DNA of 24,644 nucleotides from a virus: the UHGV virus genome UHGV-2020843; one strand, 5' to 3'. Position numbers and translations under genes: made by a program. How positions within the stretch are numbered: the stretch's first letter is position 1; every line of letters starts with the position of its first letter. A model generated the notes under the pieces. The model was not told the origin of the DNA. It saw only the letters and a program-made list of their open reading frames with translations, and searched no databases. This document shows positions 5,675 through 24,644 of this stretch, piece after piece.

Positions 5675-5675
5675 A

Positions 5676-6747: not shown

Positions 6748-6748
6748 G

Positions 6749-6869: not shown

Positions 6870-6900
6870 CATCTCATCGGCAAACAACGGAGCCAGTGAG

Positions 6901-8665: not shown

Positions 8666-8667
8666 TT

Positions 8668-9474: not shown

Positions 9475-10601
9475 CCATCCGCCAGCATAAAACTGGCGAC
9501 ACTCTGGTTATCACTTTCACATACAAAGGGGTTCTGTGCCGGGAGCCCCTCTCCAAAATGGAAGCAAACGCGCGCGGTGTGAAGTACGCCGAGCGCCTGC
9601 TCGGGGAGATACAGAACCAGATCGTCAGTGGCACCTTTGAATATGCGAAATATTTCCCCAACTCCAAAAAGCTGGAGCTATTCGGGGTGGTGAAGAAAAC
9701 CAAAAACATAAAGTCCTACCTGGACGAGTACCTCAAAATCTGCCAGAACCGCAACCTGTCCCCGTCGACTATAAATGGTTATGAAAAATGCCTGTCGGCA
9801 CTGTCAGCTCTGCATAAACTCCACGTGTCAGAACTGACGCCAGCGGTCCTTAAAAACTGGATAGCCAGCCGGAAAACAAAGCTGAAAACGACCAGGAATA
9901 ACCTTTCGTTTCTGCGCAGCGCAATCGATGAAGCTGTTACGGATGGCCTGCTGACCATTAACCCGGTAACCCTCGTCAGCGCCAGCCGGTACCACGTGAT
10001 CGACAGCAGCCCGAGCGCCGACGATTACGAGGTTGACCCGTTCACGCCAGCGGAGACCCTCGCCATTTACCAGAACTGCAGGTACCCGGAATGGGAAAAC
10101 CTGTTCCGCTTTGCTTTCAATACCGGTCTGCGGAGCTCCGAACTGTGCGCGCTGCGCTGGCCTGATCTCGACACCATCGCGAACACAGCCCACGTTCAGG
10201 CGGCCAGTGTCGTAGGGGTACTTAAAGGCACCAAGACAAAAGCCGGTACCCGCAAGGTGGAGCTGAACAGTGAGGCGCTGGCGGCCCTGCAGGCGCAGAA
10301 GCAATACACCTTTATGAAAAGTGAGTTCATATTCAGCGATCCGAAAACGGGAGAACCCTGGGCGAACGCCGACGCTATCCGTAAAAAAGCATGGGTGCCG
10401 ACCCTGAAAAAAGCTGGCGTGCGCTACCGTAACCCGTACCAGACGCGGCACACATTCGCCACCAAGCATATTAGCCAGGGCGTTAACCTCTTCTGGCTTG
10501 CCGGACAGATGGGCCACAAAGGGCCGGAAATGATATTCCGCAACTACGGTAAATACCTGGCTGAATATGACGGTAAAACCGCGATTTCAACCGCGCTGTA
10601 G
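9429..10601 (+). CDS. int: Tyrosine site-specific integrase (lambda Int-like)
   Basis: 390 aa; C-terminal catalytic region with RHTFATKH, GHKG and YGKY (R-H-R-Y type residues); located next to the attachment-site core. Confidence 0.85.
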   Translation: MGKKEQGSLSLPRGVTIRQHKTGDTLVITFTYKGVLCREPLSKMEANARGVKYAERLLGEIQNQIVSGTFEYAKYFPNSKKLELFGVVKKTKNIKSYLDEYLKICQNRNLSPSTINGYEKCLSALSALHKLHVSELTPAVLKNWIASRKTKLKTTRNNLSFLRSAIDEAVTDGLLTINPVTLVSASRYHVIDSSPSADDYEVDPFTPAETLAIYQNCRYPEWENLFRFAFNTGLRSSELCALRWPDLDTIANTAHVQAASVVGVLKGTKTKAGTRKVELNSEALAALQAQKQYTFMKSEFIFSDPKTGEPWANADAIRKKAWVPTLKKAGVRYRNPYQTRHTFATKHISQGVNLFWLAGQMGHKGPEMIFRNYGKYLAEYDGKTAISTAL

Positions 10602-10724
10602 CGGGGTAAATATTTCAAAATGTTGGACAGAATCAGGACGTTAGACAGACCTCAATATGCACGTAAAATGCACCTGAGGTATATCACAGTGAAAGAATTG
10701 TTTATTTTCAATGAGTTAAATGCC

Positions 10725-10760
10725 TTTCGGACGCGAGTTCAACTCCCGCCAGCTCCACCA
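10725..10760 (+). other. Attachment-site core: 36-nt copy of the 3' end of tmRNA (ssrA) ending in CCA, not a complete gene
   Basis: TTTCGGACGCGAGTTCAACTCCCGCCAGCTCCACCA matches the recalled 3' end of E. coli ssrA with one mismatch (A for G in the T-arm stem); sequence upstream does not resemble the ssrA body. Confidence 0.7.
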
Positions 10761-10807
10761 AAATTCTCCATCGGTGATTACCAGAGTCATCCGATGAAGT
10801 CCTAAGA

Positions 10808-10839
10808 GCCCGCACGGCGCAAGCCCTGCGGGCTTTTTT
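10808..10839 (+). terminator. Intrinsic terminator downstream of the ssrA 3'-end copy
   Basis: GCCCGCA...TGCGGGC stem followed by T6. Confidence 0.6.
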
Positions 10840-10963
10840 GTGCCCTCAATTTGTCCCGCGAAGTCCGAAGAGAACTAATTAAATCCGAACCTTTTAGGCC
10901 CATTGATAGGCCCAACGAAAAGCTCTATTGTTTACGTTGGGCCTAAACGCAGGGAGACTCCCC

Positions 10964-12205
10964 ATGGCAAGAAAAACCAAGCCGTTAACTGATACGGAAA
11001 TCAAAGCCGCCAAACCTAAAGATGCCGATTACCAGCTTTATGACGGTGACGGGCTTACTCTGTTAATCAAGTCCAGTGGCAGTAAGCTTTGGCAATTCCG
11101 TTACTATCGGCCTTTGACCAAGCAGCGAACCAAACAGAGCTTCGGTGCCTATCCTGCCGTCTCGCTTTCTGATGCACGTAAACTCAGAGCCGAATCTAAA
11201 GTTTTATTGGCGAAAGACATTGATCCTCAGGAACATCAGAAAGAACAGGTGAGGAATTCTCAAGAGGCCAAAACCAATACCTTCTTGTTAGTTGCCGAGC
11301 GTTGGTGGAATGTGAAGAAAACCAGCGTAACAGAGGACTATGCCGACGATATCTGGCGCTCGCTTGAGAGAGATATTTTCCCGGCAATCGGTGATATCAG
11401 TATCACTGAGATTAAGGCTCATACTCTGGTTAAAGCAGTTCAGCCGGTTCAGGCCAGAGGTGCATTAGAGACTGTTCGCCGCCTTTGTCAGCGTATTAAC
11501 GAAGTCATGATTTATGCGCAGAACACAGGCCTGATTGATGCTGTTCCTAGTGTAAATATCGGAAAAGCTTTCGAGAAACCGCAAAAGAAAAACATGCCAA
11601 GCATCCGGCCGGATCAACTTCCGCAGCTAATGCACACCATGCGTACGGCAAGTATCAGCATGTCCACAAGATGCCTGTTCATGTGGCAACTTCTAACCAT
11701 CACCCGCCCTGCCGAAGCTGCTGAGGCTCGATGGGATGAGATCGATTTCAATGCTAGCGAATGGAAAATTCCTGCAGCTCGAATGAAGATGAACCGGGAC
11801 CATACGGTTCCACTATCTGATGGGGCTCTTGCTATTCTGGAAATGATGAAGCCTCTCAGTGGTGGCCGAGAATTTATCTTTCCTAGCCGTATCAAGCCCA
11901 ACCAACCAATGAATAGCCAAACAGTGAATGCAGCACTCAAGCGTGCTGGCTTAGGAGGTGTACTTGTTTCACACGGCTTGCGTTCTATCGCCAGTACGGC
12001 ACTCAATGAGGAAGGATTTCCACCTGATGTCATTGAAGCAGCGCTTGCTCATGTAGACAAAAATGAGGTGCGTCGCGCTTATAACCGCAGTGATTATCTT
12101 GAGCAACGTCGTCCGATGATGCAATGGTGGGCTGATCTCGTAAAAGCAGCAGATAGTGGTAGCATCGTTTTAACTCATTTGAGCAAAATTCGTCTTGTCG
12201 GATAA
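10964..12205 (+). CDS. intA: P4-type tyrosine integrase IntA
   Basis: 413 aa starting MARKTKPLTDTEIKAAKPKDADYQLYDGDGLTL; AGGGAG ribosome-binding site; C-terminal HGLRS...AHVDKNEVRRAYNRSDY catalytic region. Confidence 0.9.
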   Translation: MARKTKPLTDTEIKAAKPKDADYQLYDGDGLTLLIKSSGSKLWQFRYYRPLTKQRTKQSFGAYPAVSLSDARKLRAESKVLLAKDIDPQEHQKEQVRNSQEAKTNTFLLVAERWWNVKKTSVTEDYADDIWRSLERDIFPAIGDISITEIKAHTLVKAVQPVQARGALETVRRLCQRINEVMIYAQNTGLIDAVPSVNIGKAFEKPQKKNMPSIRPDQLPQLMHTMRTASISMSTRCLFMWQLLTITRPAEAAEARWDEIDFNASEWKIPAARMKMNRDHTVPLSDGALAILEMMKPLSGGREFIFPSRIKPNQPMNSQTVNAALKRAGLGGVLVSHGLRSIASTALNEEGFPPDVIEAALAHVDKNEVRRAYNRSDYLEQRRPMMQWWADLVKAADSGSIVLTHLSKIRLVG

Positions 12206-12448
12206 AATATTTATCAGCCCAGCTCTCTGGGCTGATATTTCTAAAAGATCGCACTAAATAGCTACGCGGAATAGTGCTCTACTTTCGTTTAGCCCTTTCA
12301 GAGGTAAGACATTAGGGCAATTTCACTGTATGACTGCGCAGTCATCGAGTCTGTGGGGTGTTGCTCCTTTTGCAACGTATCACTTGTCAATAAATAGAAA
12401 GTGTAGATGTATTAGGCGCAGCTATTTAGTCTATATGGCAAGTAGTAA

Positions 12449-13405
12449 TTATTTACTTCTTTTTTTTCTACGAACAGCGCTATCGAAAGCTTGTTTTACA
12501 TCTTCATTTTTTAAAGACCATTGATTTAAAATAGTATCAACCAAAGCATCTTGACTCATTGTTGCTACACGATATTTTTTATTTTGATTATTTATCTCAA
12601 ACTCTGACATTTGAATAAAATCCCATAGCGGTTCGATAAGTTCATTAACTGCTACAACCTTATTTTTCCACCCATCATTCGGAACAGAGTCATTAATTAG
12701 CTCAACCAACTTCAGTTGAATGATATGGTACACTTCCGCTTTGCTTTTGCCACCCTTCTTTCCTGCACTCCGCCTGACTTCTGATAATTTTTTTTGATTA
12801 CAAACAGAGATGTTAAACCAAGTCATACCTATGCACTTATCAAATAACTCCGCAGCCCGATGAAATGCTTTAAAGGCAACGTTTTCATTTTCAGACATGA
12901 TAGATTTTCCCCAGAAAAAAGAGATTGAGGCGAACATAAGGTGTGCCTTGAAAATGTCATTAATGGAAAATGGCTCGATAACAAGAGGTAAAAACGTTTC
13001 CTTGGTAAGGTTTGAACTTAGATTTTTCCAGCATTCTTGAGCTGGATCATATAATTCAGTGTATTCTTCCTTTATCTCCAGTTGCCCATTCACTGTATGG
13101 TGCCTTGTTTCCCATGGTACATCGCAGGAATATAACCTCACACGAGTACCTATTTTCTCAGAGCTCCAGAATTGCTCTCGCATTCTGCCTAGCTCAATCC
13201 GTATTTCCGGATGATCTTCCTCTAGAACATCAGTATCCACCGCCCATTCGCATTCGGACATGTGATAGGCGAGATCACGTCGTTTTCTACAAATTTGTTC
13301 ATAAAAATCATTCAGAGAAATCATAAAACCACCATAAATCAATGTATTAGAGGTTGTAAAAATTGTATTTTTGGTACATGGGTTTTTTGCCTTAAAGATA
13401 CCCAT
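12449..13405 (-). CDS. yfjH: Uncharacterised island protein YfjH (318 aa from ATG at 13405; alternative start at 13324)
   Basis: AT-rich ORF between intA and alpA, on the opposite strand; position and length match recalled CP4-57 yfjH. Confidence 0.65.
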   Translation of the reverse strand: MGIFKAKNPCTKNTIFTTSNTLIYGGFMISLNDFYEQICRKRRDLAYHMSECEWAVDTDVLEEDHPEIRIELGRMREQFWSSEKIGTRVRLYSCDVPWETRHHTVNGQLEIKEEYTELYDPAQECWKNLSSNLTKETFLPLVIEPFSINDIFKAHLMFASISFFWGKSIMSENENVAFKAFHRAAELFDKCIGMTWFNISVCNQKKLSEVRRSAGKKGGKSKAEVYHIIQLKLVELINDSVPNDGWKNKVVAVNELIEPLWDFIQMSEFEINNQNKKYRVATMSQDALVDTILNQWSLKNEDVKQAFDSAVRRKKRSK

Positions 13406-13448
13406 TAATCTCTCTGCAACCAAAGTGAACCAATGAGAGGCAACAAGA

Positions 13449-13661
13449 ATGAACAATCGATCGGCCGTTAGAATACTACGGTTACCAGCGGTTATCCAAA
13501 AAACAGGTATGGCACGGGCCACCATCTATGACTGGTTGAACCCCAAATCACCACGATACGATGCCACCTTTCCCAAAAAGCGAATGCTCGGCGTGAAATC
13601 TGTCGGATGGATTGAGGCCGAGATTGATGAGTGGTTATCACAACGCTGTAAACTTATTTGA
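13449..13661 (+). CDS. alpA: AlpA-family transcriptional regulator (excision/int regulator)
   Basis: 70 aa, MNNRSAVRILRLPAVIQKTGMARATIYDWL HTH typical of AlpA/phage regulatory proteins. Confidence 0.85.
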   Translation: MNNRSAVRILRLPAVIQKTGMARATIYDWLNPKSPRYDATFPKKRMLGVKSVGWIEAEIDEWLSQRCKLI

Positions 13662-13789
13662 GGGTGTTACATGAATTCATACTCAATTGCTGTCATCGGA
13701 GTGTAAACATCCTGCTATTTCCGCCATTAATAGCGGAATAGCCATATTTGCTAAACAATTTCTTAATTTAATTAAATAAGAGGCATTGC

Positions 13790-15199
13790 ATGTTCAATGG
13801 TCGTCCTTTCCCTGTAGATGCATTTCCTAAAATTATCAGGAATGCAATTTATGAAGTGGAACAGCATACGCAGGCCCCTCAAGGTTTGATTGCTGCTTCT
13901 GCTCTTGGGGTAATTTCTCTTGCCTGTCAGAACCGGATTGATGTTTGCCGATTGAATAATCTACGTGGCCCGGTATCACTTTTCTTAATGACTCTGGCTG
14001 AATCAGGTGAACGTAAGAGTACGGTTGATAAACTGCTGATGAAGCCATTATATCAACTGGAAGAGGATTTATTTGAAAAATACACCCACGATCTTACCGC
14101 ATGGAGAAATGATGAAGCAATTTTTAATATTGAAAAAAAAGCACTGATGTCAAAACTTAAATCAGATATTCGACGTAACAAAGATCACTTGGCAACAAAT
14201 GAAAGACTTAAAGAACTACTTACGACAAACCCGAAAGCTCCAGTGAGATTCAAATTTTTATTTAACGATGCCACACCTGCAGCTATTAAAGCTCATCTCT
14301 GTGGGCACTGGCGATCAGTCGGCATCATGTCTGATGAAGCTGGGATCATTTTTAATGGTTACACACTTAACGAGCTGCCGTTTATCAATAAGATGTGGGA
14401 TGGTTCAATATTTACGGTGGAAAGGAAAAACGAGCCCGAGAAATTAATTAGAGATGCAAGAATAACACTGTCGCTGATGGTCCAGCCTAATGTTTTTAAG
14501 GGTTATATCGACAGGAAAGGAGATATGGCAAAGGGGATTGGATTTTTTGCACGGTGCCTCATGTGCCAGCCTGCTTCAACACAAGGTAACAGAAAAATTT
14601 CCAACCCAATTTTTTCAAATGAACATTTGCCGGTATTTCACCAACGTCTTATGGAAATTGTTAATGAGAGCATCATTAAAATTAATGAAAATAATCGCAT
14701 CTGCCTCCGATTCTCTGCAGAAGCAGAAAGACATTGGATCGAATTCTACAACCAGGTCGAGTCAGAAATGAGAATGATTGGCCTTCTTTATGATTTTAAG
14801 GATTATGCTTCTAAAATGGCGGAGAACATGGCGAGGCTTGCTGCCTTACTTCATTACTTCAGCGGTGATGGAGGCGATATATCTGTTACCGCAGTAAAAG
14901 CAGCAGTGGAGATAGTGGCTTGGTATATTGAAGAATACATCCGCTTGTTCTCTAAAAAAGAAGAGTTTTCTTTAGATGTTTCAGAAGCAGATGAGCTTTA
15001 TTGTTGGATAAAAGATTACTGCACGCAAAAATTTTCTTCCTGCATCAAGAAAAATATTATCTTACAATTTGGGCCAAATAAATTTAGAAATCGTGACAAG
15101 GCAAATGAATTAATTAGAATCTTAATTTCACAAAACAAAATATTTATATCTTCATGGGGTAAAACAAAAATAATAAACATAACTCATTGTGTTTTTTGA
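13790..15199 (+). CDS. yfjI: YfjI, DUF3987-type protein (possible replication or primase-associated)
   Basis: 469-aa ORF in AT-rich region following alpA, matching CP4-57 order. Confidence 0.75.
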   Translation: MFNGRPFPVDAFPKIIRNAIYEVEQHTQAPQGLIAASALGVISLACQNRIDVCRLNNLRGPVSLFLMTLAESGERKSTVDKLLMKPLYQLEEDLFEKYTHDLTAWRNDEAIFNIEKKALMSKLKSDIRRNKDHLATNERLKELLTTNPKAPVRFKFLFNDATPAAIKAHLCGHWRSVGIMSDEAGIIFNGYTLNELPFINKMWDGSIFTVERKNEPEKLIRDARITLSLMVQPNVFKGYIDRKGDMAKGIGFFARCLMCQPASTQGNRKISNPIFSNEHLPVFHQRLMEIVNESIIKINENNRICLRFSAEAERHWIEFYNQVESEMRMIGLLYDFKDYASKMAENMARLAALLHYFSGDGGDISVTAVKAAVEIVAWYIEEYIRLFSKKEEFSLDVSEADELYCWIKDYCTQKFSSCIKKNIILQFGPNKFRNRDKANELIRILISQNKIFISSWGKTKIINITHCVF

Positions 15200-15351
15200 T
15201 TTTAATGACAATCTAAAAGGACTTAATTTAAGAGTAAAAACAAACTCTAAACCCAGTTCGGATAAAAGCTTGTCATCTTGATAGGTAATATATAGGTACA
15301 TAGACACATCAGAACGATCACTTACTCCAATATCATTGGCCAGGATACTAT

Positions 15352-15978
15352 ATGACATACGATAGTGAATTCGGATCACATGTATCCCTATATCGGGATA
15401 GAATCAAACAGGTTATTGATGACTCCCTAAACGAACATCTTAACTCAATGATTCTACGTGTTGATCTGCATGACCCAATTGATACAGAAAATATGGATAA
15501 CCCATTCTTTCAACCCAGGGTTGACTCTGGTGCTATATCTCGCTTTACCAGTGCGTTAAAAGCAAAGCTTAAACACGATAAGCATATTAAAACTCAACGG
15601 AAAGACTGGCCTGATACTCGACATTCAACCTTACGTTACGCATGGGTCCGAGAATATACCAAAAATAGAAAGCGGCATTACCATTTGATACTGTGTTTCA
15701 ATCAGGATGCTTATTATCATTTAGGTGATTACGACTTAAACCGTAACACGTTACGTACAATGATAACGACAGCTTGGTACAGTGCACTTGGCATCCCTAT
15801 AGATAGCTCGGGGAAGTTAGTTAATTACCCGCCAAATGGCAAATACCTTCTCAATCGTAAAAGGGACAACTTTGAGCAGACTTATAGCGATTTGATGAAT
15901 AGGGTGGATTACATGACCAAAGTAAGGACTAAAATAGTCGGTGACGGAGACCGTAATTTCGGCTGCAGTCGCGGGTAA
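15352..15978 (+). CDS. yfjJ: YfjJ, YagK/YfjJ-family protein (inovirus Gp2-like replication-initiation fold)
   Basis: 208-aa ORF with AGGA ribosome-binding site, followed by a hairpin terminator. Confidence 0.7.
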   Translation: MTYDSEFGSHVSLYRDRIKQVIDDSLNEHLNSMILRVDLHDPIDTENMDNPFFQPRVDSGAISRFTSALKAKLKHDKHIKTQRKDWPDTRHSTLRYAWVREYTKNRKRHYHLILCFNQDAYYHLGDYDLNRNTLRTMITTAWYSALGIPIDSSGKLVNYPPNGKYLLNRKRDNFEQTYSDLMNRVDYMTKVRTKIVGDGDRNFGCSRG

Positions 15979-15996
15979 TTTATTTTTTACAACAAT

Positions 15997-16035
15997 GGCC
16001 TTTCTTATGGCTGGAAAGGCCTGATTTGTTTGTAT
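15997..16035 (+). terminator. Intrinsic terminator between convergent yfjJ and yfjK
   Basis: GGCCTTTC-9 nt loop-GAAAGGCC hairpin followed by T-rich TGATTTGTTTGTATT. Confidence 0.6.
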
Positions 16036-16155
16036 TAAGATATCGGTAATCTTTTGATGGTTGGAAGCCCGTCCTGGTAGACGACCTAGCCTACCGAAGA
16101 TGTGAGTTATTCAAAAATGTCGCTTTCCCGCGTTCCGTAGACAAACGTACCTAAA

Positions 16156-18345
16156 TCAATGTCGTCTAATACCGAGCGCGCGCCTGATAAACATCTGATC
16201 AACGTACCCAATCGATCTACTCCAAATGTCCTGAGTATCCCGAAGATACTGGCTCAACTCATCCACATCAGCCTCGTCGGAAAATTCCAGCAAGTCTACC
16301 AGTCGGTGTAACGTCTGAATGGGAATGCCAATCTCTTCTAAGGCATTGACACCTGGTGGTAGATGGAAACTTTCGAACGCCAATTTGACATGTGTGTAAT
16401 CGACTTTGCTGCGTATACCACGCTTTACAGCGTGGTGTTTAACTACATCCTCCATCAAGCTGAGCACCTTAGGTAGGGTATAGCCGAAGGTATTGGTTAT
16501 GAGCTTCAAATCATTGTTGAGGGCAATGGAAAGAGTACGTTTCTCCCCTTCAGAAATCCACTGTCGTGCATAATCGATCTGATTTTTCAGATATTCCGAA
16601 TAACTTTCAGCACTTAAATAGCCGGCAAGTTTTGCGATCATGACATCCGTAGGCTTAACAGGGACCCCATTGCGACTGAACGTATGGGGAACCAGTCTGG
16701 CAATGATCTTTGCAAAGGTCTTGAGGAAGTTTGTCGCGGGAGTCCAGTGAAACACTAACGAGGAAAATTCGTTATCGTCCATCATCTCGAACATGCTTTG
16801 CAGCATTTCGAACTGCTCGACACGGAAGTACGAATGCTTCTTCACAAGGTCGATGGAAACACGGTCGTTTATGAAAACCTCATCAAAGCGATCCTGTGAA
16901 AACTCGGACAAGTGGTCTGGTTGAACGCTGGCTAACAGGTTGATTGGGGTATCAATGCCCTGAATACCGAGCGGAATATCCACCTCTTGATTGAGATTGT
17001 CTTCCGGGATTTCCTCCAGGCAAAAGATTTTGCCGACGAAGTGAACGCCCATGCGCCCGGCGCGACCTTTGATGTTCCCATGGGTGAATTTGTCAATGCT
17101 GCGAGTTCCATCGCGGTTGTCGTAGATCACAACGTTCTTAGCGATAGTGTTGACTCCTTCAATGATCGTGGAGGTGCAGAGCAAAAAGCGCAGTTTTCCA
17201 GCATTGAATTGGTCGGCAGTGTATTGCTGCAGTGCCCTCGGTAGCGCGCCAAAATGCAAGCCAATACCGTTTCTAAGGGCGACTGTGTAATCCCAGTCGG
17301 CATCGAACTCTTCGCTGACCCAGTCGACATGGGGATTCTCAGTCGGAGTGCCATGCCCAAGCCTGATCAGCTCGCGCGCCACCAGGCCCGCAACAGTTGG
17401 TGACTTGCAATAAATGATCGTTGCGTCGACACATGCGTGCGCGATTTCCCCCAGCGCTTTGAGCTTGGCTTTGTCGTCATTCGCTTTGATGCCGAACGTC
17501 TTAACATCTAGCGCGACTGTATTGAAGTCGGTAGAAACGAAAGTATGCGGATATCCAAGTTTTTCGAGACCGCGAATGCTGTTAACGAACGGTCCCGTCA
17601 GGTAAAACTGCCTGGAGACCTTAAGCAGTTTGCTTAACGCAATGTTGAGCTCGATGACTCGTTCGTCTTGATGATCAATGTCCCCGCTTTTCAGTTGTCG
17701 GAACGCCAACTTGTAAAACTCGTCAATGACGAAGAGGTCAATGTCGACGATGTCGTCACGCTCGTTCACTCGCTCCTGAGTTAACACATAAACAGCCTGA
17801 TCGGAATGGCACACTTGGGAACTGTGGTGGATGATCTGATATCGGTCACCGAATCGCTCTTGCAGTCGGCGACGGGTTTCGTCGGCAAGAGCCACGGTTG
17901 GAACAACCAGAACAAGCCGTTTCAAAGTTCCCATGCCGAGCAATGAATCGACGATTGCACTTTTGCCCATGCTTGTAGGTGCACTCAGCACCACGTTTTG
18001 ACCAGACTTGAGCAGATCGAATATGTGGAACTGCATTGAGTGGAAAACATAACCATCCGAGAATGGCGTCCGGTATAGCTCAAGCACCCTCAGGTCATCC
18101 GGTGTCAGGCTGGTGAACTCCTTTTTGAGATACGGGAACAAACCTGATTTTCTCACCATATTTTTCAAAATTGTGGTGTGCTCGGAAAACCGCTCGCGCG
18201 AATCGAGAGCTCGCACGATCAAGTCCCGTCCCAAGTCATACGAAACAGGGTTAGACAACAGCTTGTTAACCGCAAACAGATAATTGAACGATGAGAAGTC
18301 CTCACCCTGCAGGCTATGTTTCGCCTGTTCATAGATCTCTGTCAT
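16156..18345 (-). CDS. yfjK: SF2 helicase YfjK (AbpB), Hachiman-type defence helicase HamB homologue
   Basis: 729 aa with Walker A LSAPTSMGKS and DEAD/DExH-like VIDEFYKL; ATGA overlap with the upstream yfjL stop. Confidence 0.85.
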   Translation of the reverse strand: MTEIYEQAKHSLQGEDFSSFNYLFAVNKLLSNPVSYDLGRDLIVRALDSRERFSEHTTILKNMVRKSGLFPYLKKEFTSLTPDDLRVLELYRTPFSDGYVFHSMQFHIFDLLKSGQNVVLSAPTSMGKSAIVDSLLGMGTLKRLVLVVPTVALADETRRRLQERFGDRYQIIHHSSQVCHSDQAVYVLTQERVNERDDIVDIDLFVIDEFYKLAFRQLKSGDIDHQDERVIELNIALSKLLKVSRQFYLTGPFVNSIRGLEKLGYPHTFVSTDFNTVALDVKTFGIKANDDKAKLKALGEIAHACVDATIIYCKSPTVAGLVARELIRLGHGTPTENPHVDWVSEEFDADWDYTVALRNGIGLHFGALPRALQQYTADQFNAGKLRFLLCTSTIIEGVNTIAKNVVIYDNRDGTRSIDKFTHGNIKGRAGRMGVHFVGKIFCLEEIPEDNLNQEVDIPLGIQGIDTPINLLASVQPDHLSEFSQDRFDEVFINDRVSIDLVKKHSYFRVEQFEMLQSMFEMMDDNEFSSLVFHWTPATNFLKTFAKIIARLVPHTFSRNGVPVKPTDVMIAKLAGYLSAESYSEYLKNQIDYARQWISEGEKRTLSIALNNDLKLITNTFGYTLPKVLSLMEDVVKHHAVKRGIRSKVDYTHVKLAFESFHLPPGVNALEEIGIPIQTLHRLVDLLEFSDEADVDELSQYLRDTQDIWSRSIGYVDQMFIRRALGIRRH

Positions 18346-19958
18346 ACGACCTCTCTCACCTTCTCATCAACTAATTGGGTTAACCGCTCAAGACTCGGGG
18401 CTGGATAAATGAATACGTGGATGCAAAGATTCGCAAACGGCGAATCCTCGATGAGGTCAGCCGCGAATTTTTCGAACAGCACCGCTGTTTCTTTCTCCAG
18501 GTCATCCTCGAACCCCGGCGTTTCAGGCTCGGTTAGTAGATTAGAGTCGTAGCCCACGAACAGAACAAACGTGAAACGATCGAGGTGAGCATCGAAAGGT
18601 TGGCTGCCATCAAGAATTTCGTCAATGTCGTGGCGAAGCAGGTAGTTATCGTCTTTAATGTCGAGGATTTTTTTGCGCGCGGTATCGATGCAATCCGAAA
18701 TGTCCTCGTACAACTGATCCCGTATCTCCGGCAATCTGACGGCAATGTTAATATCAGTCACCAACTCGCTGAAGCCAATCCAAAGCTGATCACCTTCTGG
18801 ATCGCGGCGAACGATATGCACGTTTTCAAGAATTTTTTCGGCCCCTGCTTTTTCCACGTATAGCATGCAAGGAATAGGCTGGCTTTCGTGGTGCTGCCGG
18901 ATCGTTGCGTGCAACAGCACTCGACCCAAAAATTCGCTGACGTCATGGAGCGATTTGAAGACGGAATTCTTTAGTCGTTCTCGCTTTTCAATGAATGTCA
19001 GTTTATGAATATCAGACATTTCTTTTGGTCGGAGAAAAACCTCATCCAACCATTGACAGACGTTATCCGCGATGTGCTTGTAGCGGTATTTCTTAAGTGA
19101 GTACTGCTGATGTAGAACCTGGCCTTTACGCTTAGCGCAGACCGAAGCCATAGGCGCTCTAAATGGCGTAAGGATGTGGGGTAAGTCCCGTTTGACGTAG
19201 ATTTTGCGGCCTGACCGAGATTGGTCATCTTCGACACGCTGCTTGAACCACTCAAGTAGGTCTGGTCGTAAGTAGGACTTGTCATCAGCACTGTGAATGC
19301 GTCGAGAATGCTCGCCCTTGCGCGTCACAGTATCAAGGATGCGGCACCAAATGTCTTCGGCGACGGTTTCGGAACTGAGAATGACCCCATGTAGATCTTG
19401 GGAGGCCAGCCGTATGTTCTTGATCCCTAGAAGTTCCAGTTCGCGCAGGGATGAAAACACTTCCCATGTAGCCGCATCGATCCAATCTGAAACGCTTATA
19501 CCTGAGTCTGTTAAAAAATTGTCTGTGCGTTTGTTGAGGTCATCGATGAGTTCCTGTCGACCTGGCTTATCTAGTCGGGCGTTTGGGCTGATCGTCAAGT
19601 ACTCAAGGGTTTTGTTGACCTTTTCCTCTGTGACGATGGAGTACCTACGTCCAAGGGACAGGTCAGACTCACACTGCATTGATTTGTGCAAAATTGAACT
19701 GCAGGGGATCGTCTTTTTATCAGCACCTTTTGAATTCTGAACGATGTCCGAAATGTTCCAACGTGTTTTGCCGGTGCTTTTTACCTGAACGAAGTCGATG
19801 TATCCATCAGATACAATGTCGATATCGTCTGTGACCTCGCAGCGCACACTGCGGATAGTCTTGTCACGAAGCATTCGGGTGACATGGTAAGCGGCTACGC
19901 AGTCCTGAAATAAGAAACCGTGCTTGGCGGCTACTCCGCCTGAATCGTTCGACTCCAT
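18342..19958 (-). CDS. yfjL: YfjL (AbpA), Hachiman-type defence effector HamA homologue (DUF1837-type)
   Basis: 538-aa ORF immediately upstream of and translationally coupled to the helicase, in the conserved CP4-57 position. Confidence 0.8.
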   Translation of the reverse strand: MESNDSGGVAAKHGFLFQDCVAAYHVTRMLRDKTIRSVRCEVTDDIDIVSDGYIDFVQVKSTGKTRWNISDIVQNSKGADKKTIPCSSILHKSMQCESDLSLGRRYSIVTEEKVNKTLEYLTISPNARLDKPGRQELIDDLNKRTDNFLTDSGISVSDWIDAATWEVFSSLRELELLGIKNIRLASQDLHGVILSSETVAEDIWCRILDTVTRKGEHSRRIHSADDKSYLRPDLLEWFKQRVEDDQSRSGRKIYVKRDLPHILTPFRAPMASVCAKRKGQVLHQQYSLKKYRYKHIADNVCQWLDEVFLRPKEMSDIHKLTFIEKRERLKNSVFKSLHDVSEFLGRVLLHATIRQHHESQPIPCMLYVEKAGAEKILENVHIVRRDPEGDQLWIGFSELVTDINIAVRLPEIRDQLYEDISDCIDTARKKILDIKDDNYLLRHDIDEILDGSQPFDAHLDRFTFVLFVGYDSNLLTEPETPGFEDDLEKETAVLFEKFAADLIEDSPFANLCIHVFIYPAPSLERLTQLVDEKVREVV

Positions 19959-20217
19959 TTAGACATCCGTGACAATTTTGCGAAAATTAAGGAGATGTTA
20001 TGACACAGTCCAATCGGATCACTGCATCATCACCAGTGATCTAAATACTTCACAGCCATTCTCGGTCGCAGGTATCAAGCTTTTCAGGATTCCACAAATA
20101 TTGTAACCCTGACGTCTAATTTGGTTATATAACATACTGCCCCAACTAACGTAAGGTAGGCACAGCCTTAATCAAGGTTTTGGTTTTCAAATAGTTCAGA
20201 GCTGAGACCGCCAACCG

Positions 20218-20284
20218 CACTATGGCACTATGGCACTATGGCACTATGGCACTATGGCACTATGGCACTATGGCACTATGGCAC
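20218..20284. repeat. Perfect tandem octamer repeat (TATGGCAC) x 8, intergenic
   Basis: Eight uninterrupted copies of TATGGCAC (20221-20284) preceded by a partial CAC; lies between the yfjM stop and the yfjL start. Confidence 0.95.
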
Positions 20285-20333
20285 CGCCAGCGATTGTAAT
20301 CACACTTGATATTATAAAACACAGTTGCACGCA

Positions 20334-20597
20334 TTATTTCCTGGTTGGTAGGGTCATATCTCGATGCTCTTTGAGCAATGTCAACATCGCGTGTTCATGG
20401 CTTTCTATATTGTTGATGCCTTGCCCATCCGGACCCCACTCCTTATAGCTCATCATGATGGCTTGTTTTGGGCTCTCTGCTCGTTCTGTTTCGACGTAGA
20501 ATTTTTTCTTGTCTGCTGGCGAATAATTACTAAGTATCGAGTTGCTGCTTGGTGAGATCAGGAAGAGGTTACCGAAACGATGGACATCATCCCCCAT
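20334..20597 (-). CDS. yfjM: Small uncharacterised island protein YfjM
   Basis: 87-aa ORF in the CP4-57 position between yfjL and rnlA. Confidence 0.6.
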
Positions 20598-20738
20598 TTT
20601 GTGGACTGCCCCCCCGGTAGACGATCCTGCCCTATAGTTGGAGTGCCCCCTATTCAGGTGGCTAAATTTAGCAAATCAATACACTTCAGGGGGGTATTAT
20701 TGTAGAGTTTCCCCATATGTTTCTATGGGATCCAGGAA

Positions 20739-21812
20739 ATGACAATCAGGAGTTACAAAAACTTAAATCTGGTCAGGGCAAATATCGAGACTGAATCCAG
20801 ACAATTCATTGAAAATAAAAACTATTCAATCCAATCAATTGGTCCTATGCCAGGGTCAAGGGCTGGGCTTCGGGTCGTATTTACCAGACCAGGGGTTAAC
20901 TTGGCAACTGTGGACATTTTTTATAACGGGGACGGTTCGACTACAATTCAATATCTCACTGGAGCCAATCGTTCTCTGGGCCAAGAGTTAGCGGATCATC
21001 TTTTTGAAACCATCAATCCTGCTGAATTTGAGCAGGTAAATATGGTACTGCAAGGATTTGTAGAGACAAGCGTTCTACCTGTACTTGAGCTATCAGCAGA
21101 TGAATCGCATATAGAGTTCAGAGAACACTCTCGTAACGCTCATACCGTAGTGTGGAAAATTATTTCCACCAGCTATCAGGACGAATTGACTGTGAGCCTG
21201 CATATCACAACAGGTAAGCTCCAGATTCAGGGCCGACCGCTGTCATGTTACAGAGTTTTCACGTTTAACTTGGCAGCCCTGCTTGATTTACAGGGTTTGG
21301 AGAAAGTGCTAATCCGCCAGGAGGATGGTAAAGCTAATATTGTTCAACAGGAGGTTGCCCGCACTTACTTGCAGACTGTAATGGCCGATGCTTACCCGCA
21401 TCTCCACGTGACTGCCGAAAAATTGCTCGTTTCAGGGCTATGTGTTAAACTCGCCGCCCCTGATTTGCCTGACTACTGTATGTTACTTTATCCTGAACTA
21501 CGCACCATTGAAGGTGTCTTAAAAAGTAAGATGAGTGGGTTAGGCATGCCAGTACAGCAGCCGGCAGGTTTTGGAACTTACTTTGATAAACCTGCTGCTC
21601 ATTACATTCTGAAACCGCAATTTGCAGCTACTCTTAGACCGGAACAGATTAACATCATCAGCACAGCCTATACTTTTTTTAATGTGGAACGTCATTCTCT
21701 GTTCCACATGGAAACTGTGGTCGATGCCAGCCGTATGATTTCTGATATGGCCCGGTTGATGGGTAAAGCCACTAGAGCGTGGGGAATAATCAAGGACTTA
21801 TATATTGTTTGA
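20739..21812 (+). CDS. rnlA: RnlA toxin (RNase LS endoribonuclease)
   Basis: 357 aa starting MTIRSYKNLNLVRANIETESRQFIENKNYS; followed by overlapping antitoxin gene. Confidence 0.85.
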   Translation: MTIRSYKNLNLVRANIETESRQFIENKNYSIQSIGPMPGSRAGLRVVFTRPGVNLATVDIFYNGDGSTTIQYLTGANRSLGQELADHLFETINPAEFEQVNMVLQGFVETSVLPVLELSADESHIEFREHSRNAHTVVWKIISTSYQDELTVSLHITTGKLQIQGRPLSCYRVFTFNLAALLDLQGLEKVLIRQEDGKANIVQQEVARTYLQTVMADAYPHLHVTAEKLLVSGLCVKLAAPDLPDYCMLLYPELRTIEGVLKSKMSGLGMPVQQPAGFGTYFDKPAAHYILKPQFAATLRPEQINIISTAYTFFNVERHSLFHMETVVDASRMISDMARLMGKATRAWGIIKDLYIV

Positions 21813-22176
21813 AATCACCGGAATTAACGTCTCAGGGGCTCTAAAAGCTGTCGTTATGGCGACCGGCTTCGAGAACCCTTTGTCCTCAGTTAATGAAATT
21901 GAGACGAAACTTTCTGCCCTACTGGGTAGTGAGACCACTGGTGAAATCCTTTTTGACCTCTTGTGCGCTAACGGTCCAGAGTGGAACCGCTTCGTTACGC
22001 TGGAAATGAAATATGGCCGGATCATGCTGGATACGGCCAAAATTATTGATGAGCAGGACGTTCCGACACATATCCTGAGCAAACTGACTTTTACTTTACG
22101 TAATCATCCTGAGTACCTAGAAGCCTCTGTTTTGTCTCCCGATGATGTACGCCAAGTCCTGTCAATGGATTTTTGA
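21805..22176 (+). CDS. rnlB: RnlB antitoxin
   Basis: 123-aa ORF overlapping the rnlA 3' end by 8 nt; canonical toxin-then-antitoxin order of the rnlAB module. Confidence 0.8.
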   Translation: MFEITGINVSGALKAVVMATGFENPLSSVNEIETKLSALLGSETTGEILFDLLCANGPEWNRFVTLEMKYGRIMLDTAKIIDEQDVPTHILSKLTFTLRNHPEYLEASVLSPDDVRQVLSMDF

Positions 22177-22478
22177 AACTCTTCTTTCTAAACGAACCAG
22201 TATAGAATTCGCCCTTTTGGCATGATATTAACTTGTCCAATATGATCAAATAGCATTAACCCCCCCTCACAACGTCCTGCATAGGGAACACGTTTTCCCC
22301 TGTGCACCCACGACTAAATTTCCCCCCCTTTAAACTTCTCAATAATGTCACCAATTTTCTGGAAATCCTATGATGCCTTTCCCGGTAAATGGTGCTGTGA
22401 GTTCAGAAAGATTCTGCAATCTATGTGCATTGAAAAAATCTTCAGATAGATATCATTCTCCTGAACAATCCGATGAAC

Positions 22479-22511
22479 GGCAGAACCTCGCGGTTCTGCC
22501 GTTTTTGTTTT
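22479..22511 (+). terminator. Intrinsic terminator-like hairpin in the leader immediately upstream of yfjP
   Basis: GGCAGAACC-TCGC-GGTTCTGCC followed by GTTTTTGTTTT; ends 10 nt before the yfjP ribosome-binding site. Confidence 0.6.
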
Positions 22512-22530
22512 ACTTTTCAGAGGAGTGGTG

Positions 22531-23394
22531 ATGAAAAATTTTGAAGTTCTGCAGCCACTACAGAACTCCCTTTCCGGTCTACCGCTATGGGTATCTGAAC
22601 GTATATTGCAGCAGATAAATCAGTTAACCCACTACGAGCCAGTGATCGGCATCATGGGTAAAACTGGGGCGGGAAAGAGTAGCCTTTGCAATGCCCTGTT
22701 TGCCGGTGAAGTATCGCCGGTCAGCGATGTAGCGGCCTGTACACGTGATCCTTTACGCTTTCGCCTGCAGATTGGAGAACACTTTATGACCATCGTGGAT
22801 CTGCCCGGCGTGGGCGAAAGTGGCGTTCGCGATACCGAGTATGCTGCGCTGTACCGCGAACAACTTCCCCGGCTCGACCTGATTCTGTGGCTGATTAAGG
22901 CTGATGATCGGGCACTGGCGACTGATGAGCATTTTTACCGTCAGGTGATTGGCGAAGCATACCGGCATAAGATGCTGTTTGTTATCAGCCAGTCAGACAA
23001 AGCTGAACCCACCAGCGGTGGAAATATCCTTTCCACAGAGCAGAAACAAAATATCAGCCGCAAAATCTGCCTGCTGCATGAGCTATTCCAGCCCGTGCAT
23101 CCGGTGTGTGCCGTGTCGGTTCGCCTGCAGTGGGGACTAAGGGTGATGGCAGAGCGGATGATTAAGTGTCTGCCGCGTGAGGCCAGCAGCCCGGTAGTAG
23201 CGCTACTGCAACATCCCTTTCGAACAACGGTAGCCCGGGAGCAGGCACGTGACGATTTCGGTGAAACCGTAGGTGCCATACTCGATACGGTAAGCACCTT
23301 TCCCCTTATTCCCGCCCCGGTGCGGACCATTATTCAGGCCGTGCGTTCCTCGGTGGTGTCAGTGGCCCGCGCTGTCTGGGATTTCTTCTTCTGA
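22531..23394 (+). CDS. yfjP: YfjP, predicted GTPase (YeeP/YkfA paralogue family)
   Basis: P-loop GIMGKTGAGKSSL and DLPG G3-like motif; 287 aa from ATG at 22531 with AGGAG ribosome-binding site. Confidence 0.8.
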   Translation: MKNFEVLQPLQNSLSGLPLWVSERILQQINQLTHYEPVIGIMGKTGAGKSSLCNALFAGEVSPVSDVAACTRDPLRFRLQIGEHFMTIVDLPGVGESGVRDTEYAALYREQLPRLDLILWLIKADDRALATDEHFYRQVIGEAYRHKMLFVISQSDKAEPTSGGNILSTEQKQNISRKICLLHELFQPVHPVCAVSVRLQWGLRVMAERMIKCLPREASSPVVALLQHPFRTTVAREQARDDFGETVGAILDTVSTFPLIPAPVRTIIQAVRSSVVSVARAVWDFFF

Positions 23395-23485
23395 GTGTTT
23401 AATTCTGCCCTATTATTCTCCGAGCCCTGTCGCAAGTGCGGCAGGGCTTTCTTTATTTGTTTTACCCATACTGAGGAGTCTGCTT

Positions 23486-24307
23486 ATGACCCGTCTGGCT
23501 TCGCGCTTTGGCGCTGCAAATCTTATTCGCCGTGACCGTCCGTTAACCCGTGAAGAGTTATTTCGCGTGGTGCCCAGCGTATTCAGTGAGGATAAACACG
23601 AATCCCGCAGTGAACGCTACACGTATATACCCACAATTTCCCTGCTGGACAGCCTGCAGCGGGAAGGCTTCCAGCCATTCTTTGCCTGTCAGACACGGGT
23701 ACGTGACCCCCGTCGTCGTGAGCATACTAAGCATATGCTGCGCCTACGTCGGGAGGGGCAAATTACCGGTAAACAGGTTCCGGAAATTATCCTGCTTAAC
23801 TCTCACGATGGCACCAGTTCGTACCAGATGCTGCCGGGCATGTTCAGGGCGGTGTGCCAGAACGGTCTGGTCTGCGGCGAGTCGTTTGGCGAGGTGCGGG
23901 TGCCACACAAGGGGGATGTGGTGAGTCAGGTTATTGAGGGGGCGTATGAAGTGCTGGGGATTTTTGAGCGTGTGGAAGAAAAGAGGGATGCCATGCAGTC
24001 GTTGCTTTTACCGCCACCTGTGCAGCAGGCACTGGCAAAAGCAGCGCTTACGTATCGCTTTGGTGAGGACCACCAGCCGGTTACTGAATCGCAGATACTC
24101 TCCCCACGCCGCTGGCAGGATGAGAGCAATGACCTTTGGACCACCTATCAGCGGATTCAAGAAAACCTGATTAAGGGCGGACTCAGTGGGCGTAATGCTA
24201 AAGGCGGACGAACTCATACTCGTGCCGTGCGTGGCATTGACGGGGATGTGAAGCTTAACCGTGCGCTGTGGGTGATGGCAGAAACACTGCTCACGCAACT
24301 GCAGTAG
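23486..24307 (+). CDS. yfjQ: YfjQ, DUF932-family protein
   Basis: 273-aa ORF following yfjP, matching CP4-57 order; GAGGAG ribosome-binding site. Confidence 0.75.
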   Translation: MTRLASRFGAANLIRRDRPLTREELFRVVPSVFSEDKHESRSERYTYIPTISLLDSLQREGFQPFFACQTRVRDPRRREHTKHMLRLRREGQITGKQVPEIILLNSHDGTSSYQMLPGMFRAVCQNGLVCGESFGEVRVPHKGDVVSQVIEGAYEVLGIFERVEEKRDAMQSLLLPPPVQQALAKAALTYRFGEDHQPVTESQILSPRRWQDESNDLWTTYQRIQENLIKGGLSGRNAKGGRTHTRAVRGIDGDVKLNRALWVMAETLLTQLQ

Positions 24308-24523
24308 ACGTTTCATGTTGCCACGTTGTTAATATCGGACACCACCTGTCCGCATCGCTATGTGCTCGTGTGCCTCAATCCCCCGGTTATAGCTTTTAAC
24401 CCCCGTTACATCTGGCTTTTGCAGAAATAAAAAATAGTTTCTGCGTTGTCCATACCCTGTCCGCCCCCCTCTTTAAAGTAATCACATCATTTTCAGTCAG
24501 TTAACTTTCCTGGAGAATCTCTC

Positions 24524-24644
24524 ATGACACAGGCAGAACGCCGCCATGACCGGCTGGCTGTCAGGCTGTCACTGATAATCAGCCGTCTGGTTGCGGGTGA
24601 AACGTTGAGCGTGCGCAAACTGGCGGCTGAGTTTGGCGTGTCAG
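24524..24644 (+). CDS. yfjR: YfjR N-terminus (DeoR-type HTH regulator), truncated by window end
   Basis: ATG at 24524 with GGAG ribosome-binding site; [43 protein letters not shown]-like start. Confidence 0.7.

What the first reader, a model, noticed from the sequence alone, without database searches (positions are those of the whole stretch)
16156..19958. Two-gene Hachiman-type anti-phage operon (yfjL/yfjK, AbpAB) inside the CP4-57-like island
A 538-aa protein and a 729-aa SF2 helicase are translationally coupled (ATGA overlap) on the minus strand. This matches the AbpA/AbpB pair of E. coli CP4-57, which belongs to the Hachiman family (HamA DUF1837 effector plus HamB helicase). It is the clearest defence system in the window; it is known rather than novel, but its regulatory context here (repeat array upstream) is worth examining.
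Basis: partly seen in the sequence, partly recalled or inferred. Interest (0 to 1): 0.6.

Follow-up and report, generated by a model that had tools for sequence, protein, structure and literature searches.

The report
Known AbpAB (Hachiman) anti-phage operon
These two overlapping genes are the already well-studied AbpA/AbpB (Hachiman type I-B) phage-defence pair of E. coli K-12, base-for-base identical to the published one, so the finding is correct but ordinary.

Summary
A 538-aa ORF (18342-19958, minus) and a 729-aa ORF (16156-18345, minus) overlap by ATGA. The 3.8 kb are 100% identical to abpA/abpB (yfjL/yfjK) of E. coli K-12 CP4-57. Both proteins match PADLOC HamA1 and HamB1 models end to end (E 3e-266 and 4e-220) and equal PDB 8ZUE chains A and B.

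One refinement applies. This is the type I-B Hachiman variant. The effector is the N-terminal Cap4-type nuclease domain of AbpA (D45/Q58/K60 present). The DUF1837 domain is published as a catalytically dead scaffold that binds AbpB.

Published work on these exact proteins shows abortive infection, activation by phage SSB-ssDNA or DNA damage, and ATP-dependent non-specific DNA degradation.

The "repeat array upstream" (GCACTATG x8.5, 20217-20284) is not a conserved regulatory element. It is a slippage-prone VNTR with 1.5 copies in other genera and 6.5 to 10.5 in E. coli. It gained one unit in a published evolution experiment. It lies about 100-165 nt upstream of the SELEX-predicted yfjLK promoter (20089-20118).

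Verdict: already known, low interest.

The parts
18342..19958 (-). abpA (yfjL, hamA type I-B), 538 aa
   Evidence: ORF. PADLOC HamA1 E 2.8e-266. Identical to PDB 8ZUE chain A. 100% DNA identity to K-12 abpA.
19314..19943 (-). AbpA N-terminal Cap4-type PD-(D/E)xK nuclease domain (aa 6-215), the effector domain; D45, Q58 and K60 present
   Evidence: Pfam PF14130 E 1e-55. Residues checked. Q58A, K60A and D45A abolish defence and nuclease activity in PMC10732053 and PMC11914072.
18402..19079 (-). AbpA C-terminal HamA/DUF1837 domain (aa 294-519); published as a catalytically inactive scaffold that binds the AbpB N-terminal domain
   Evidence: Pfam PF08878 E 3.7e-41. Interface residues D305, R346, R428, D433 and D437 are present. 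The scaffold role comes from PMC11914072.
18342..18345 (-). ATGA stop/start overlap of abpA and abpB (translational coupling inferred)
   Evidence: Sequence. Conserved in 12/12 intact orthologous loci. The four-base overlap is also stated in PMC11914072.
16156..18345 (-). abpB (yfjK, hamB), 729-aa SF2 (Ski2/Hel308-like) helicase
   Evidence: ORF. PADLOC HamB1 E 4.2e-220. Identical to PDB 8ZUE chain B. Walker A G127-K128-S129 and DE 208-209 are present.
17047..18036 (-). AbpB helicase core (DEAD aa 104-210, Helicase_C aa 365-433)
   Evidence: Pfam PF00270 and PF00271, both above their cut-offs.
20089..20118 (-). Predicted sigma-70 promoter of yfjLK (abpAB): TAGACG-18-TGGAAT
   Evidence: The motif was assigned to an RpoD-holoenzyme genomic-SELEX peak in the yfjL-yfjM spacer (PMC3946193). 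It has a single exact match in the window. The transcription start site has not been mapped.
20217..20284 (.). Octamer VNTR GCACTATG x8.5 (CATAGTGC on the operon strand), 99-166 nt upstream of the predicted -35 element
   Evidence: TRF score 136, 100% matches. Two units more than K-12. 1.5 copies in other genera. 6.5, 7.5, 8.5 and 10.5 copies among E. coli genomes. A +GCACTATG mutation was seen in experimental evolution (PMC4709186).
20334..20597 (-). yfjM, 87-aa 3' remnant of a GmrSD-family gene that is intact upstream of abpAB in other genera
   Evidence: Pfam GmrSD_C E 6e-06. Intact 641-aa and 632-aa GmrSD_N+GmrSD_C genes in L005 and L008. Homology with those loci starts at window 20602.
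15997..16021 (.). GC-rich hairpin between the convergent yfjJ and abpB genes (terminator-like; the T-run is on the + strand only)
   Evidence: The consensus scan was not enriched over shuffles, so this is weak evidence.

Best explanation
The locus is the abpA-abpB (yfjL-yfjK) operon of the CP4-57 cryptic prophage, a type I-B Hachiman anti-phage system.

Shown by published work on proteins identical to those encoded here:
- AbpA and AbpB form a 1:1 heterodimer. The catalytically dead DUF1837 domain of AbpA docks on the TPR-like N-terminal domain of AbpB.
- The complex hydrolyses ATP (stimulated by short dsDNA) and unwinds DNA.
- The complex degrades linear, plasmid, ssDNA, phage and host DNA non-specifically through the N-terminal Cap4-type nuclease of AbpA (D45/Q58/K60).
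- In cells the system is silent during normal growth. It is switched on by phage infection, by T4 Gp32 bound to ssDNA, by mitomycin C, norfloxacin or bleomycin, and partly by loss of recB or recC. The result is growth arrest or death (abortive infection).

Inferred:
- The two genes are translationally coupled through the ATGA overlap, which would help keep the two subunits at 1:1.
- They are transcribed from a weak constitutive sigma-70 promoter about 130 nt upstream of the abpA ATG.
- The upstream octamer array is a neutral, slippage-prone VNTR.
For: - 100% nucleotide identity over 3803 bp to annotated abpB/abpA of K-12 MG1655, present in 363 of 5426 complete E. coli genomes.
- Full-length PADLOC HamA1 and HamB1 hits, E 2.8e-266 and 4.2e-220.
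- Pfam Cap4_nuclease + HamA on AbpA, and DEAD + Helicase_C on AbpB.
- The proteins are identical to PDB 8ZUE chains A and B.
- All published catalytic and interface residues are present.
- The ATGA overlap is conserved in 12/12 orthologous loci across Enterobacterales, Pseudomonas, Stutzerimonas and Rheinheimera.
- Mechanistic data come from PMC10732053, PMC11914072 and PMC12278908.
- The promoter motif from PMC3946193 is present unchanged.
Against: Nothing argues against the identification. Open points concern the mechanism, not what the locus is.
- The purified complex degrades DNA in vitro without any trigger, so how it is held off in vivo is not explained.
- The physical trigger is undefined. 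Gp41 is needed by T4 but is not sufficient, and E. coli SSB does not activate the system.
- Type I-A work proposes release of HamA from HamB, whereas type I-B work finds the complex itself to be the active nuclease.
- The published defence assays I read used plasmid-borne copies. Protection from the single chromosomal copy in this particular strain is not shown.
- I could not confirm the dead DUF1837 active site independently.
Confidence: 0.97

Rival explanations
1. The octamer array upstream is a functional contingency (phase-variation-like) element. Copy-number changes alter the spacing or phasing between an upstream element and the abpAB promoter, and so tune expression of a self-toxic defence system.
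For: - Copy number varies: 6.5 in most K-12 derivatives, 7.5 in NEB 5-alpha, ER2796 and TUM1509, 8.5 here and in mip270_04, and 10.5 in MB06021.
- A +GCACTATG mutation arose in a macrophage-evolved K-12 clone (PMC4709186).
- A yfjL/yfjM intergenic mutation spread among mice in a gut-evolution study (PMC10340439). The nature of that mutation could not be read.
- An 8-bp unit changes the helical phase with each step.
Against: - The array lies 99-166 nt upstream of the predicted -35 element, outside the core promoter.
- The closest orthologous cassettes in Pectobacterium, Tenebrionibacter, Mixta and Pantoea have only 1.5 copies and an otherwise conserved spacer, so the array is not needed by the system.
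- No parallel recurrence was reported in the macrophage study: it was one clone that also carried two other mutations.
- The repeat itself contains no recognisable promoter hexamers at a workable spacing (my own reading of the sequence).
- No literature links the array to expression.
Confidence: 0.07
2. The pair is primarily a host DNA-repair or replication-restart helicase-nuclease, and phage defence is a side effect of over-expression.
For: - AbpB resembles Hel308, Pol-theta and Ski2-type helicases.
- The system responds to DNA damage and to recB/recC defects without any phage.
- The published defence assays used plasmids.
Against: - Activation kills or arrests the host rather than aiding survival: CFU falls below 1% after mitomycin C.
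- The genes sit on a cryptic prophage next to other defence genes (the rnlAB toxin-antitoxin and a GmrSD remnant) and move horizontally as a compact cassette among distant genera.
- Only 363 of 5426 complete E. coli genomes carry it.
- It defends from its native promoter on a low-copy plasmid.
Confidence: 0.02
3. The operon is present but functionally silent in this genome, as a transcriptionally silenced cryptic-prophage cargo, and contributes no defence at chromosomal copy number.
For: - The surrounding CP4-57 DNA is AT-rich (GC 0.36-0.42 at 12-16 kb).
- The predicted promoter is a poor match to consensus (TAGACG/TGGAAT), and my consensus scan found no strong promoter.
- The abpA Shine-Dalgarno sequence is weak.
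Against: - RNA polymerase holoenzyme alone binds the spacer in vitro, and the promoter is listed without an H-NS mark.
- The native promoter on pACYC184 gives 10- to 10,000-fold protection.
- Both ORFs are intact and identical to the active proteins.
Confidence: 0.1

Closest known systems
AbpA/AbpB (YfjL/YfjK) of E. coli K-12 prophage CP4-57: Yasui et al. 2014 (cited in PMC12278908), Sasaki et al. 2023 (PMC10732053), Cui et al. 2025 (PMC11914072, PDB 8ZUE)
   Same: Identical at every one of 3803 nucleotides, so both proteins are identical. Same flanking genes yfjI, yfjJ, yfjM and rnlAB. Same predicted promoter.
   Different: Only the context differs. The upstream octamer array has 8.5 units instead of 6.5. 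There are 6 SNPs elsewhere in the island. A second prophage lies to the left of the island where K-12 has ssrA.
Canonical type I-A Hachiman: HamAB of E. coli ECOR31 (PDB 8VX9, PMC12278908) and of E. coli DEC14B (PMC11914072)
   Same: A two-gene HamA (DUF1837) plus HamB (SF2 helicase) heterodimer. Abortive infection by ATP-dependent, non-specific DNA degradation. Activated by DNA damage.
   Different: - Type I-A HamA is DUF1837 only and has an active (D/E)xK site (E138/K140 or E150/K152). Here DUF1837 is inactive and a Cap4-type nuclease is fused at the N-terminus.
- Type I-B HamB is shorter (729 aa against 1174 aa for 8VX9_B) and lacks the winged-helix and OB-fold domains. Its ATPase is stimulated by dsDNA rather than by 3' ssDNA ends.
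- Sequence similarity to 8VX9 HamB is confined to RecA2 (E 1e-07). Similarity to ECOR31 HamA was undetectable by phmmer or a shallow profile.
Cap4 effector nucleases of CBASS, and DUF4297/LmuA nucleases of Lamassu and HerA-DUF4297 systems
   Same: [quoted passage not shown] It has weak hits to LmuA models (E 5.8e-14).
   Different: There is no SAVED sensor domain, no CD-NTase, and no SMC-like LmuB or HerA partner. The nuclease is controlled by a HamB helicase through the DUF1837 domain.

Membership tests
Hachiman (HamAB) | HamA protein carrying a DUF1837 (Pfam HamA, PF08878) domain | tested here: met
   PF08878 E 3.7e-41, 141.9 bits against a cut-off of 25, covering aa 294-519 and profile positions 1-229 of 230. 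PADLOC HamA1 PDLC00153 E 2.8e-266 over positions 1-540 of 541.
Hachiman (HamAB) | HamB SF2 helicase with intact ATP-binding motifs I and II | tested here: met
   PADLOC HamB1 PDLC00180 E 4.2e-220 over positions 5-706 of 709. DEAD and Helicase_C are above their Pfam cut-offs. G127-K128-S129 and D208-E209 are present.
Hachiman (HamAB) | hamA and hamB adjacent, on the same strand, in one operon, with no obligatory third gene (no type II HamC) | tested here: met
   ATGA overlap, conserved in 12/12 orthologous loci. The best models are HamA1 and HamB1. The shared cassette ends 15 nt after the abpB stop. The neighbouring genes gave no Hachiman-related hits.
Hachiman (HamAB) | Experimentally shown anti-phage activity | not testable with these tools
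   Shown for identical proteins in PMC10732053 and PMC11914072. Not tested for this strain.
Hachiman type I-A (canonical) | Single-domain HamA whose DUF1837 carries the catalytic (D/E)xK site | tested here: not met
   AbpA has two domains, with an N-terminal Cap4 nuclease, so the single-domain architecture is not met. The loss of the DUF1837 active site itself I could not verify: neither phmmer nor an 11-sequence profile aligned it to ECOR31 HamA. That loss is reported from structures in PMC11914072 and PMC12278908.
Hachiman type I-B (Cui et al. 2025) | HamA is an N-terminal Cap4-type nuclease with a D...QxK or ExK site, fused to DUF1837 | tested here: met
   PF14130 E 1e-55 over aa 6-215 and profile positions 1-200 of 200. 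D45, Q58 and K60 are present. The K-12 system is the type I-B exemplar.
AbpAB of E. coli K-12 CP4-57 | Sequence identity and the same genomic island context | tested here: met
   100% identity over 3803 bp. Window 10725-24644 is collinear with K-12 CP4-57 at 99.84%.
CBASS Cap4 effector | Cap4 nuclease fused to a SAVED sensor domain, with a CD-NTase in the operon | tested here: not met
   Pfam finds only Cap4_nuclease + HamA on the protein and no SAVED domain. The operon partner is a helicase.
Lamassu (LmuA/LmuB) | DUF4297-type LmuA effector paired with an SMC-like LmuB | tested here: not met
   There are only weak N-terminal LmuA hits (E 5.8e-14 or worse) against HamA1 at E 2.8e-266. The partner is HamB, not an SMC-like protein.

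The most novel reading that the evidence does not exclude
The hypermutable GCACTATG array upstream of the abpAB promoter (1.5 units in other genera, 6.5 to 10.5 in E. coli, and changing by single units within laboratory lineages and evolution experiments) could act as a contingency locus. It would tune expression of a self-toxic abortive-infection nuclease-helicase, letting lineages trade defence against the cost of auto-activation by DNA damage.
Probability: 0.06. Interest if true: 0.4.

Novelty: already known. Interest (0 to 1): 0.08.

Why it matters
It matters little as a discovery. The same two proteins have been characterised genetically (2014, 2023), biochemically, and by cryo-EM (2025, PDB 8ZUE). 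The value here is a correct annotation:
- The window carries an intact, sequence-identical type I-B Hachiman system.
- Its effector is the Cap4-type nuclease domain, not DUF1837.
- The cassette (window 20602-16141) moves horizontally between genera at about 94% DNA identity. In other genera an intact GmrSD-family pair precedes it; in E. coli only the yfjM stub of that pair survives.
- The one loose end is whether the length-variable octamer array upstream affects expression.

Tried and rejected
1. A second HamA: the other 538-aa ORF in the window (3336-4952, -) is a ResIII/DEAD/Helicase_C helicase in a prophage replication module next to a Toprim primase. It is not a HamA, and the equal length is a coincidence.
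2. Independent check of the dead DUF1837 active site: phmmer with the C-terminal domain, and an 11-sequence profile (A1), against PDB sequences reached only 8ZUE and never ECOR31 HamA, even at E up to 10. I ran no further search on this, because two structural papers already agree.
3. A structured leader RNA or riboswitch: the fold of the predicted 5' leader (20082-19940) has z = -0.44, no better than shuffles. Rfam gave no hit anywhere in the window.
4. Consensus promoter and terminator scan of 15900-20800: 3 promoter-like and 3 terminator-like sites, against 6.4 and 4.3 expected by chance. It is uninformative and missed the SELEX-assigned promoter.
5. Literature on the octamer: only one paper prints it, the +GCACTATG mutation in PMC4709186. 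The supplement of the mouse-gut study that tracks a yfjL/yfjM mutation is not held.
6. Source genome: strain mip270_04 shares the 8.5-unit array but has ssrA directly next to intA and a different AbpB accession, so it is not the source of the window.
7. Conservation of the array as a regulatory feature: rejected, because orthologous cassettes have 1.5 copies.
Full report
**Observation**

The window contains a 538-aa ORF at 18342-19958 and a 729-aa ORF at 16156-18345, both on the minus strand. The stop codon of the first overlaps the start codon of the second as ATGA at 18342-18345. A purine-rich GAGAGAGG stretch lies just upstream of the second ATG.

The overlap is not a chance feature. In 12 of 12 intact orthologous loci the same ATGA junction joins a 538/539-aa ORF to a 726-730-aa ORF. 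These loci come from Pectobacterium, Tenebrionibacter, Mixta, Providencia, Pseudomonas, Stutzerimonas, Rheinheimera and two further E. coli genomes.

**Identity**

- The 3803-bp stretch is 100% identical to the region annotated abpB (DEAD/DEAH box helicase) and abpA (anti-bacteriophage protein AbpA) in E. coli K-12 MG1655 and its derivatives. It is present in 363 of 5426 complete E. coli genomes, always on the chromosome.
- Window 10725-24644 is collinear with K-12 CP4-57 (intA, yfjH, alpA, yfjI, yfjJ, abpB, abpA, yfjM, rnlA, rnlB, yfjP, yfjQ) at 99.84% identity. The differences are six SNPs and 16 extra bases in the octamer array.
- Both proteins are identical over their full length to chains A and B of PDB entry 8ZUE, "Anti-bacteriophage protein A/B".

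**Family membership**

- AbpA matches PADLOC HamA1 model PDLC00153 end to end (E 2.8e-266).
- AbpB matches HamB1 model PDLC00180 end to end (E 4.2e-220).
- Pfam splits AbpA into an N-terminal Cap4_nuclease domain (PF14130, aa 6-215, E 1e-55) and a C-terminal HamA/DUF1837 domain (PF08878, aa 294-519, E 3.7e-41).
- Pfam finds DEAD and Helicase_C in AbpB.
- NCBIfam gives only sub-threshold similarity of AbpB to Hel308-type helicases. The PDB sequence search likewise shows RecA2-level similarity to Pol-theta, Hel308, Mtr4/Ski2 and ECOR31 HamB.
- The published functional residues are all present: D45, Q58 and K60 (nuclease), G127/K128/S129 and D208/E209 (ATPase), and the interface residues.

**How it works**

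The following comes from the literature on these exact proteins.

Sasaki et al. 2023 (PMC10732053):
- AbpAB blocks many dsDNA phages and phiX174, but not the RNA phage Q-beta. It also blocks lysogenisation and induction of Sp5. It acts by abortive infection.
- Q58A or K60A in AbpA, and K128A, D208A or E209A in AbpB, abolish defence.
- T4 Gp32 activates the system only if Gp32 can bind ssDNA.
- Mitomycin C, norfloxacin and bleomycin activate the system without phage, independently of RecA and LexA. Loss of recB or recC partly activates it.

Cui et al. 2025 (PMC11914072):
- They solved the 3.1 Å cryo-EM structure. The complex is a 1:1 heterodimer in which the DUF1837 domain binds the TPR-like N-terminal domain of HamB.
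- The complex, but neither subunit alone, unwinds DNA. It degrades linear, plasmid, single-stranded, phage and host DNA in a D45/K60-dependent, Mg/Co/Zn-dependent manner.
- They classify the K-12 system as type I-B: DUF1837 without the (D/E)xK site, fused to an auxiliary Cap4 nuclease. Type I-A (86% of HamA proteins) has a single active DUF1837 domain.

Tuck et al. [quoted passage not shown]

I tried to confirm the dead active site myself. Neither phmmer nor an 11-sequence profile of AbpA C-terminal domains aligned to ECOR31 HamA in the PDB, so that point rests on the two papers.

Three mechanistic points remain open. First, it is not known what keeps a complex that is constitutively nucleolytic in vitro silent in vivo. 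Second, the physical trigger is not defined. Third, it is unsettled whether activation involves release of the nuclease, as proposed for type I-A, or action of the intact complex.

**Regulatory context**

- The array is GCACTATG x8.5 at 20217-20284, with 100% matches. It lies between the yfjM stop (20334) and the abpA start (19958).
- Genomic SELEX with RpoD holoenzyme placed a binding peak in the yfjL-yfjM spacer and assigned the yfjLK promoter TAGACG-18-TGGAAT (PMC3946193). That motif occurs once in the window, at 20118-20089 on the operon strand.
- The array therefore lies 99-166 nt upstream of the -35 hexamer, outside the core promoter.
- My own consensus scan was uninformative. The predicted leader does not fold better than shuffled sequence (z = -0.44), and Rfam finds nothing in the window.

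Comparative data show the array is a recent expansion.

- In the closest orthologous cassettes (Pectobacterium, Tenebrionibacter, Mixta, Pantoea) the otherwise conserved spacer carries only GTGCCATAGTGCC, which is 1.5 units.
- Among complete E. coli genomes the spans correspond to 6.5 units (about 359 genomes, mostly K-12 derivatives), 7.5 units (NEB 5-alpha, ER2796, TUM1509), 8.5 units (strain mip270_04, and this window) and 10.5 units (strain MB06021).
- A +GCACTATG insertion at yfjL/yfjM arose in one K-12 clone during experimental evolution with macrophages (PMC4709186).
- A yfjL/yfjM mutation spread between mice in a gut-evolution study, but I could not read which mutation it was.

The simplest reading is a slippage-prone neutral VNTR. 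A role in tuning expression is not excluded, but nothing supports it.

**The cassette and its neighbours**

- Nucleotide homology to the Pectobacterium, Tenebrionibacter, Mixta, Providencia and Pantoea loci runs from window 20602 at most (20562 and 20482 for Tenebrionibacter and Mixta) to 16141 (16153 for Pantoea). It is interrupted only by the array. Identity over the 4.1-kb block holding abpA and abpB is 89-94%. The homology ends 15 nt after the abpB stop.
- In Pseudomonas and Rheinheimera the homology is confined to the two genes and a few tens of bases upstream.
- In Pectobacterium and Providencia the cassette is preceded by an intact pair of GmrSD-family genes: 446 aa with GmrSD_N + DUF7834, and 641 or 632 aa with GmrSD_N + GmrSD_C.
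- E. coli yfjM (87 aa, GmrSD_C fragment) is the 3' stub of the second of these genes. In E. coli it is truncated where the rnlAB region begins.
- The island thus holds remnants of, or intact, three defence functions side by side: the GmrSD stub, AbpAB and RnlAB.

**Left part of the window**

Window 1-10724 is not K-12.

- It is the end of a lambdoid-type prophage. It encodes a Q antiterminator, a Toprim primase, a 538-aa ResIII/DEAD replicative-type helicase, a CI-like S24 repressor, and an Arm-binding tyrosine integrase ending at 10601.
- K-12 homology starts at 10725, inside the last roughly 36 nt of ssrA. No tmRNA gene is found in the window.
- This fits two elements integrated in tandem at ssrA.
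- The shared length of 538 aa with AbpA is a coincidence.

**Verdict**

The system is already known down to atomic structure, so novelty is nil and interest is low. The only untested idea of any novelty is that the VNTR modulates expression. I give this about 6%.

Noticed in passing
window 1-10724: The left 10.7 kb is not K-12. It is the end of a lambdoid-type prophage: Q antiterminator 705-1508(-), a 286-aa ORF with no Pfam or PADLOC family hit 1505-2365(-), Toprim primase 2365-3339(-), 538-aa ResIII/DEAD helicase 3336-4952(-), CI-like S24 repressor 6040-6747(+), and Arm-binding integrase 9429-10601(+). It lies in tandem with CP4-57. The best E. coli matches cover only 75% at 96.6% identity.
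   Followed up: partly
window 10725-10760: K-12 homology begins inside the last ~36 nt of ssrA (an att copy), but ARAGORN and Rfam find no tmRNA gene in the window. The intact ssrA presumably lies beyond the left prophage, which would mean tandem integration at ssrA.
   Followed up: partly
window 20334-20597 (-); L005 429-3681; L008 429-3654: yfjM (87 aa) is the 3' stub of a 632-641-aa GmrSD_N+GmrSD_C gene. In Pectobacterium and Providencia that gene is intact directly upstream of abpAB and is preceded by a 446-aa GmrSD_N+DUF7834 gene. The ancestral module was therefore a GmrSD pair plus Hachiman I-B.
   Followed up: partly
window 20017-20041: A perfect 8-bp inverted repeat with a 9-nt spacer, GATCACTG-N9-CAGTGATC, lies in the predicted abpA leader. 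It carries two Dam GATC sites 17 bp apart. It is only partly conserved in orthologues: one arm is mutated in L006 and L013, and the spacer differs in L007. The leader fold as a whole is not significant.
   Followed up: partly
window 20272-20350: A 70-79-bp stretch between the octamer array and the yfjM stop matches, at 86-88% identity, part of an ISEc16 (IS3-family) transposase gene on 8 E. coli plasmids (E 9e-14). It may be an old IS scar, or a chance similarity.
   Followed up: no
window 15576-15649 (yfjJ): Five of the six SNPs relative to K-12 cluster within 74 bp of yfjJ, while the adjacent abpAB is identical to K-12. This suggests a small recombination patch.
   Followed up: no
window 20739-22176 (+): The rnlA-rnlB toxin-antitoxin pair (357 aa and 123 aa, overlapping ORFs) lies divergently next to yfjM/abpAB. 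It is annotated in K-12 as a type II TA mRNA endoribonuclease system. It gave no PADLOC hit.
   Followed up: partly
L006 318-3392: In Tenebrionibacter the abpAB cassette is preceded by a type III restriction enzyme Res subunit (1024 aa, PADLOC REase_III, E = 0) instead of the GmrSD pair. The cassette therefore sits in different defence islands in different hosts.
   Followed up: no
L013 4001-5614: In the Pantoea stink-bug symbiont (SZZY01000008.1) the abpA reading frame stops after 66 codons although DNA homology continues. It is probably a pseudogene in a genome undergoing reduction.
   Followed up: no
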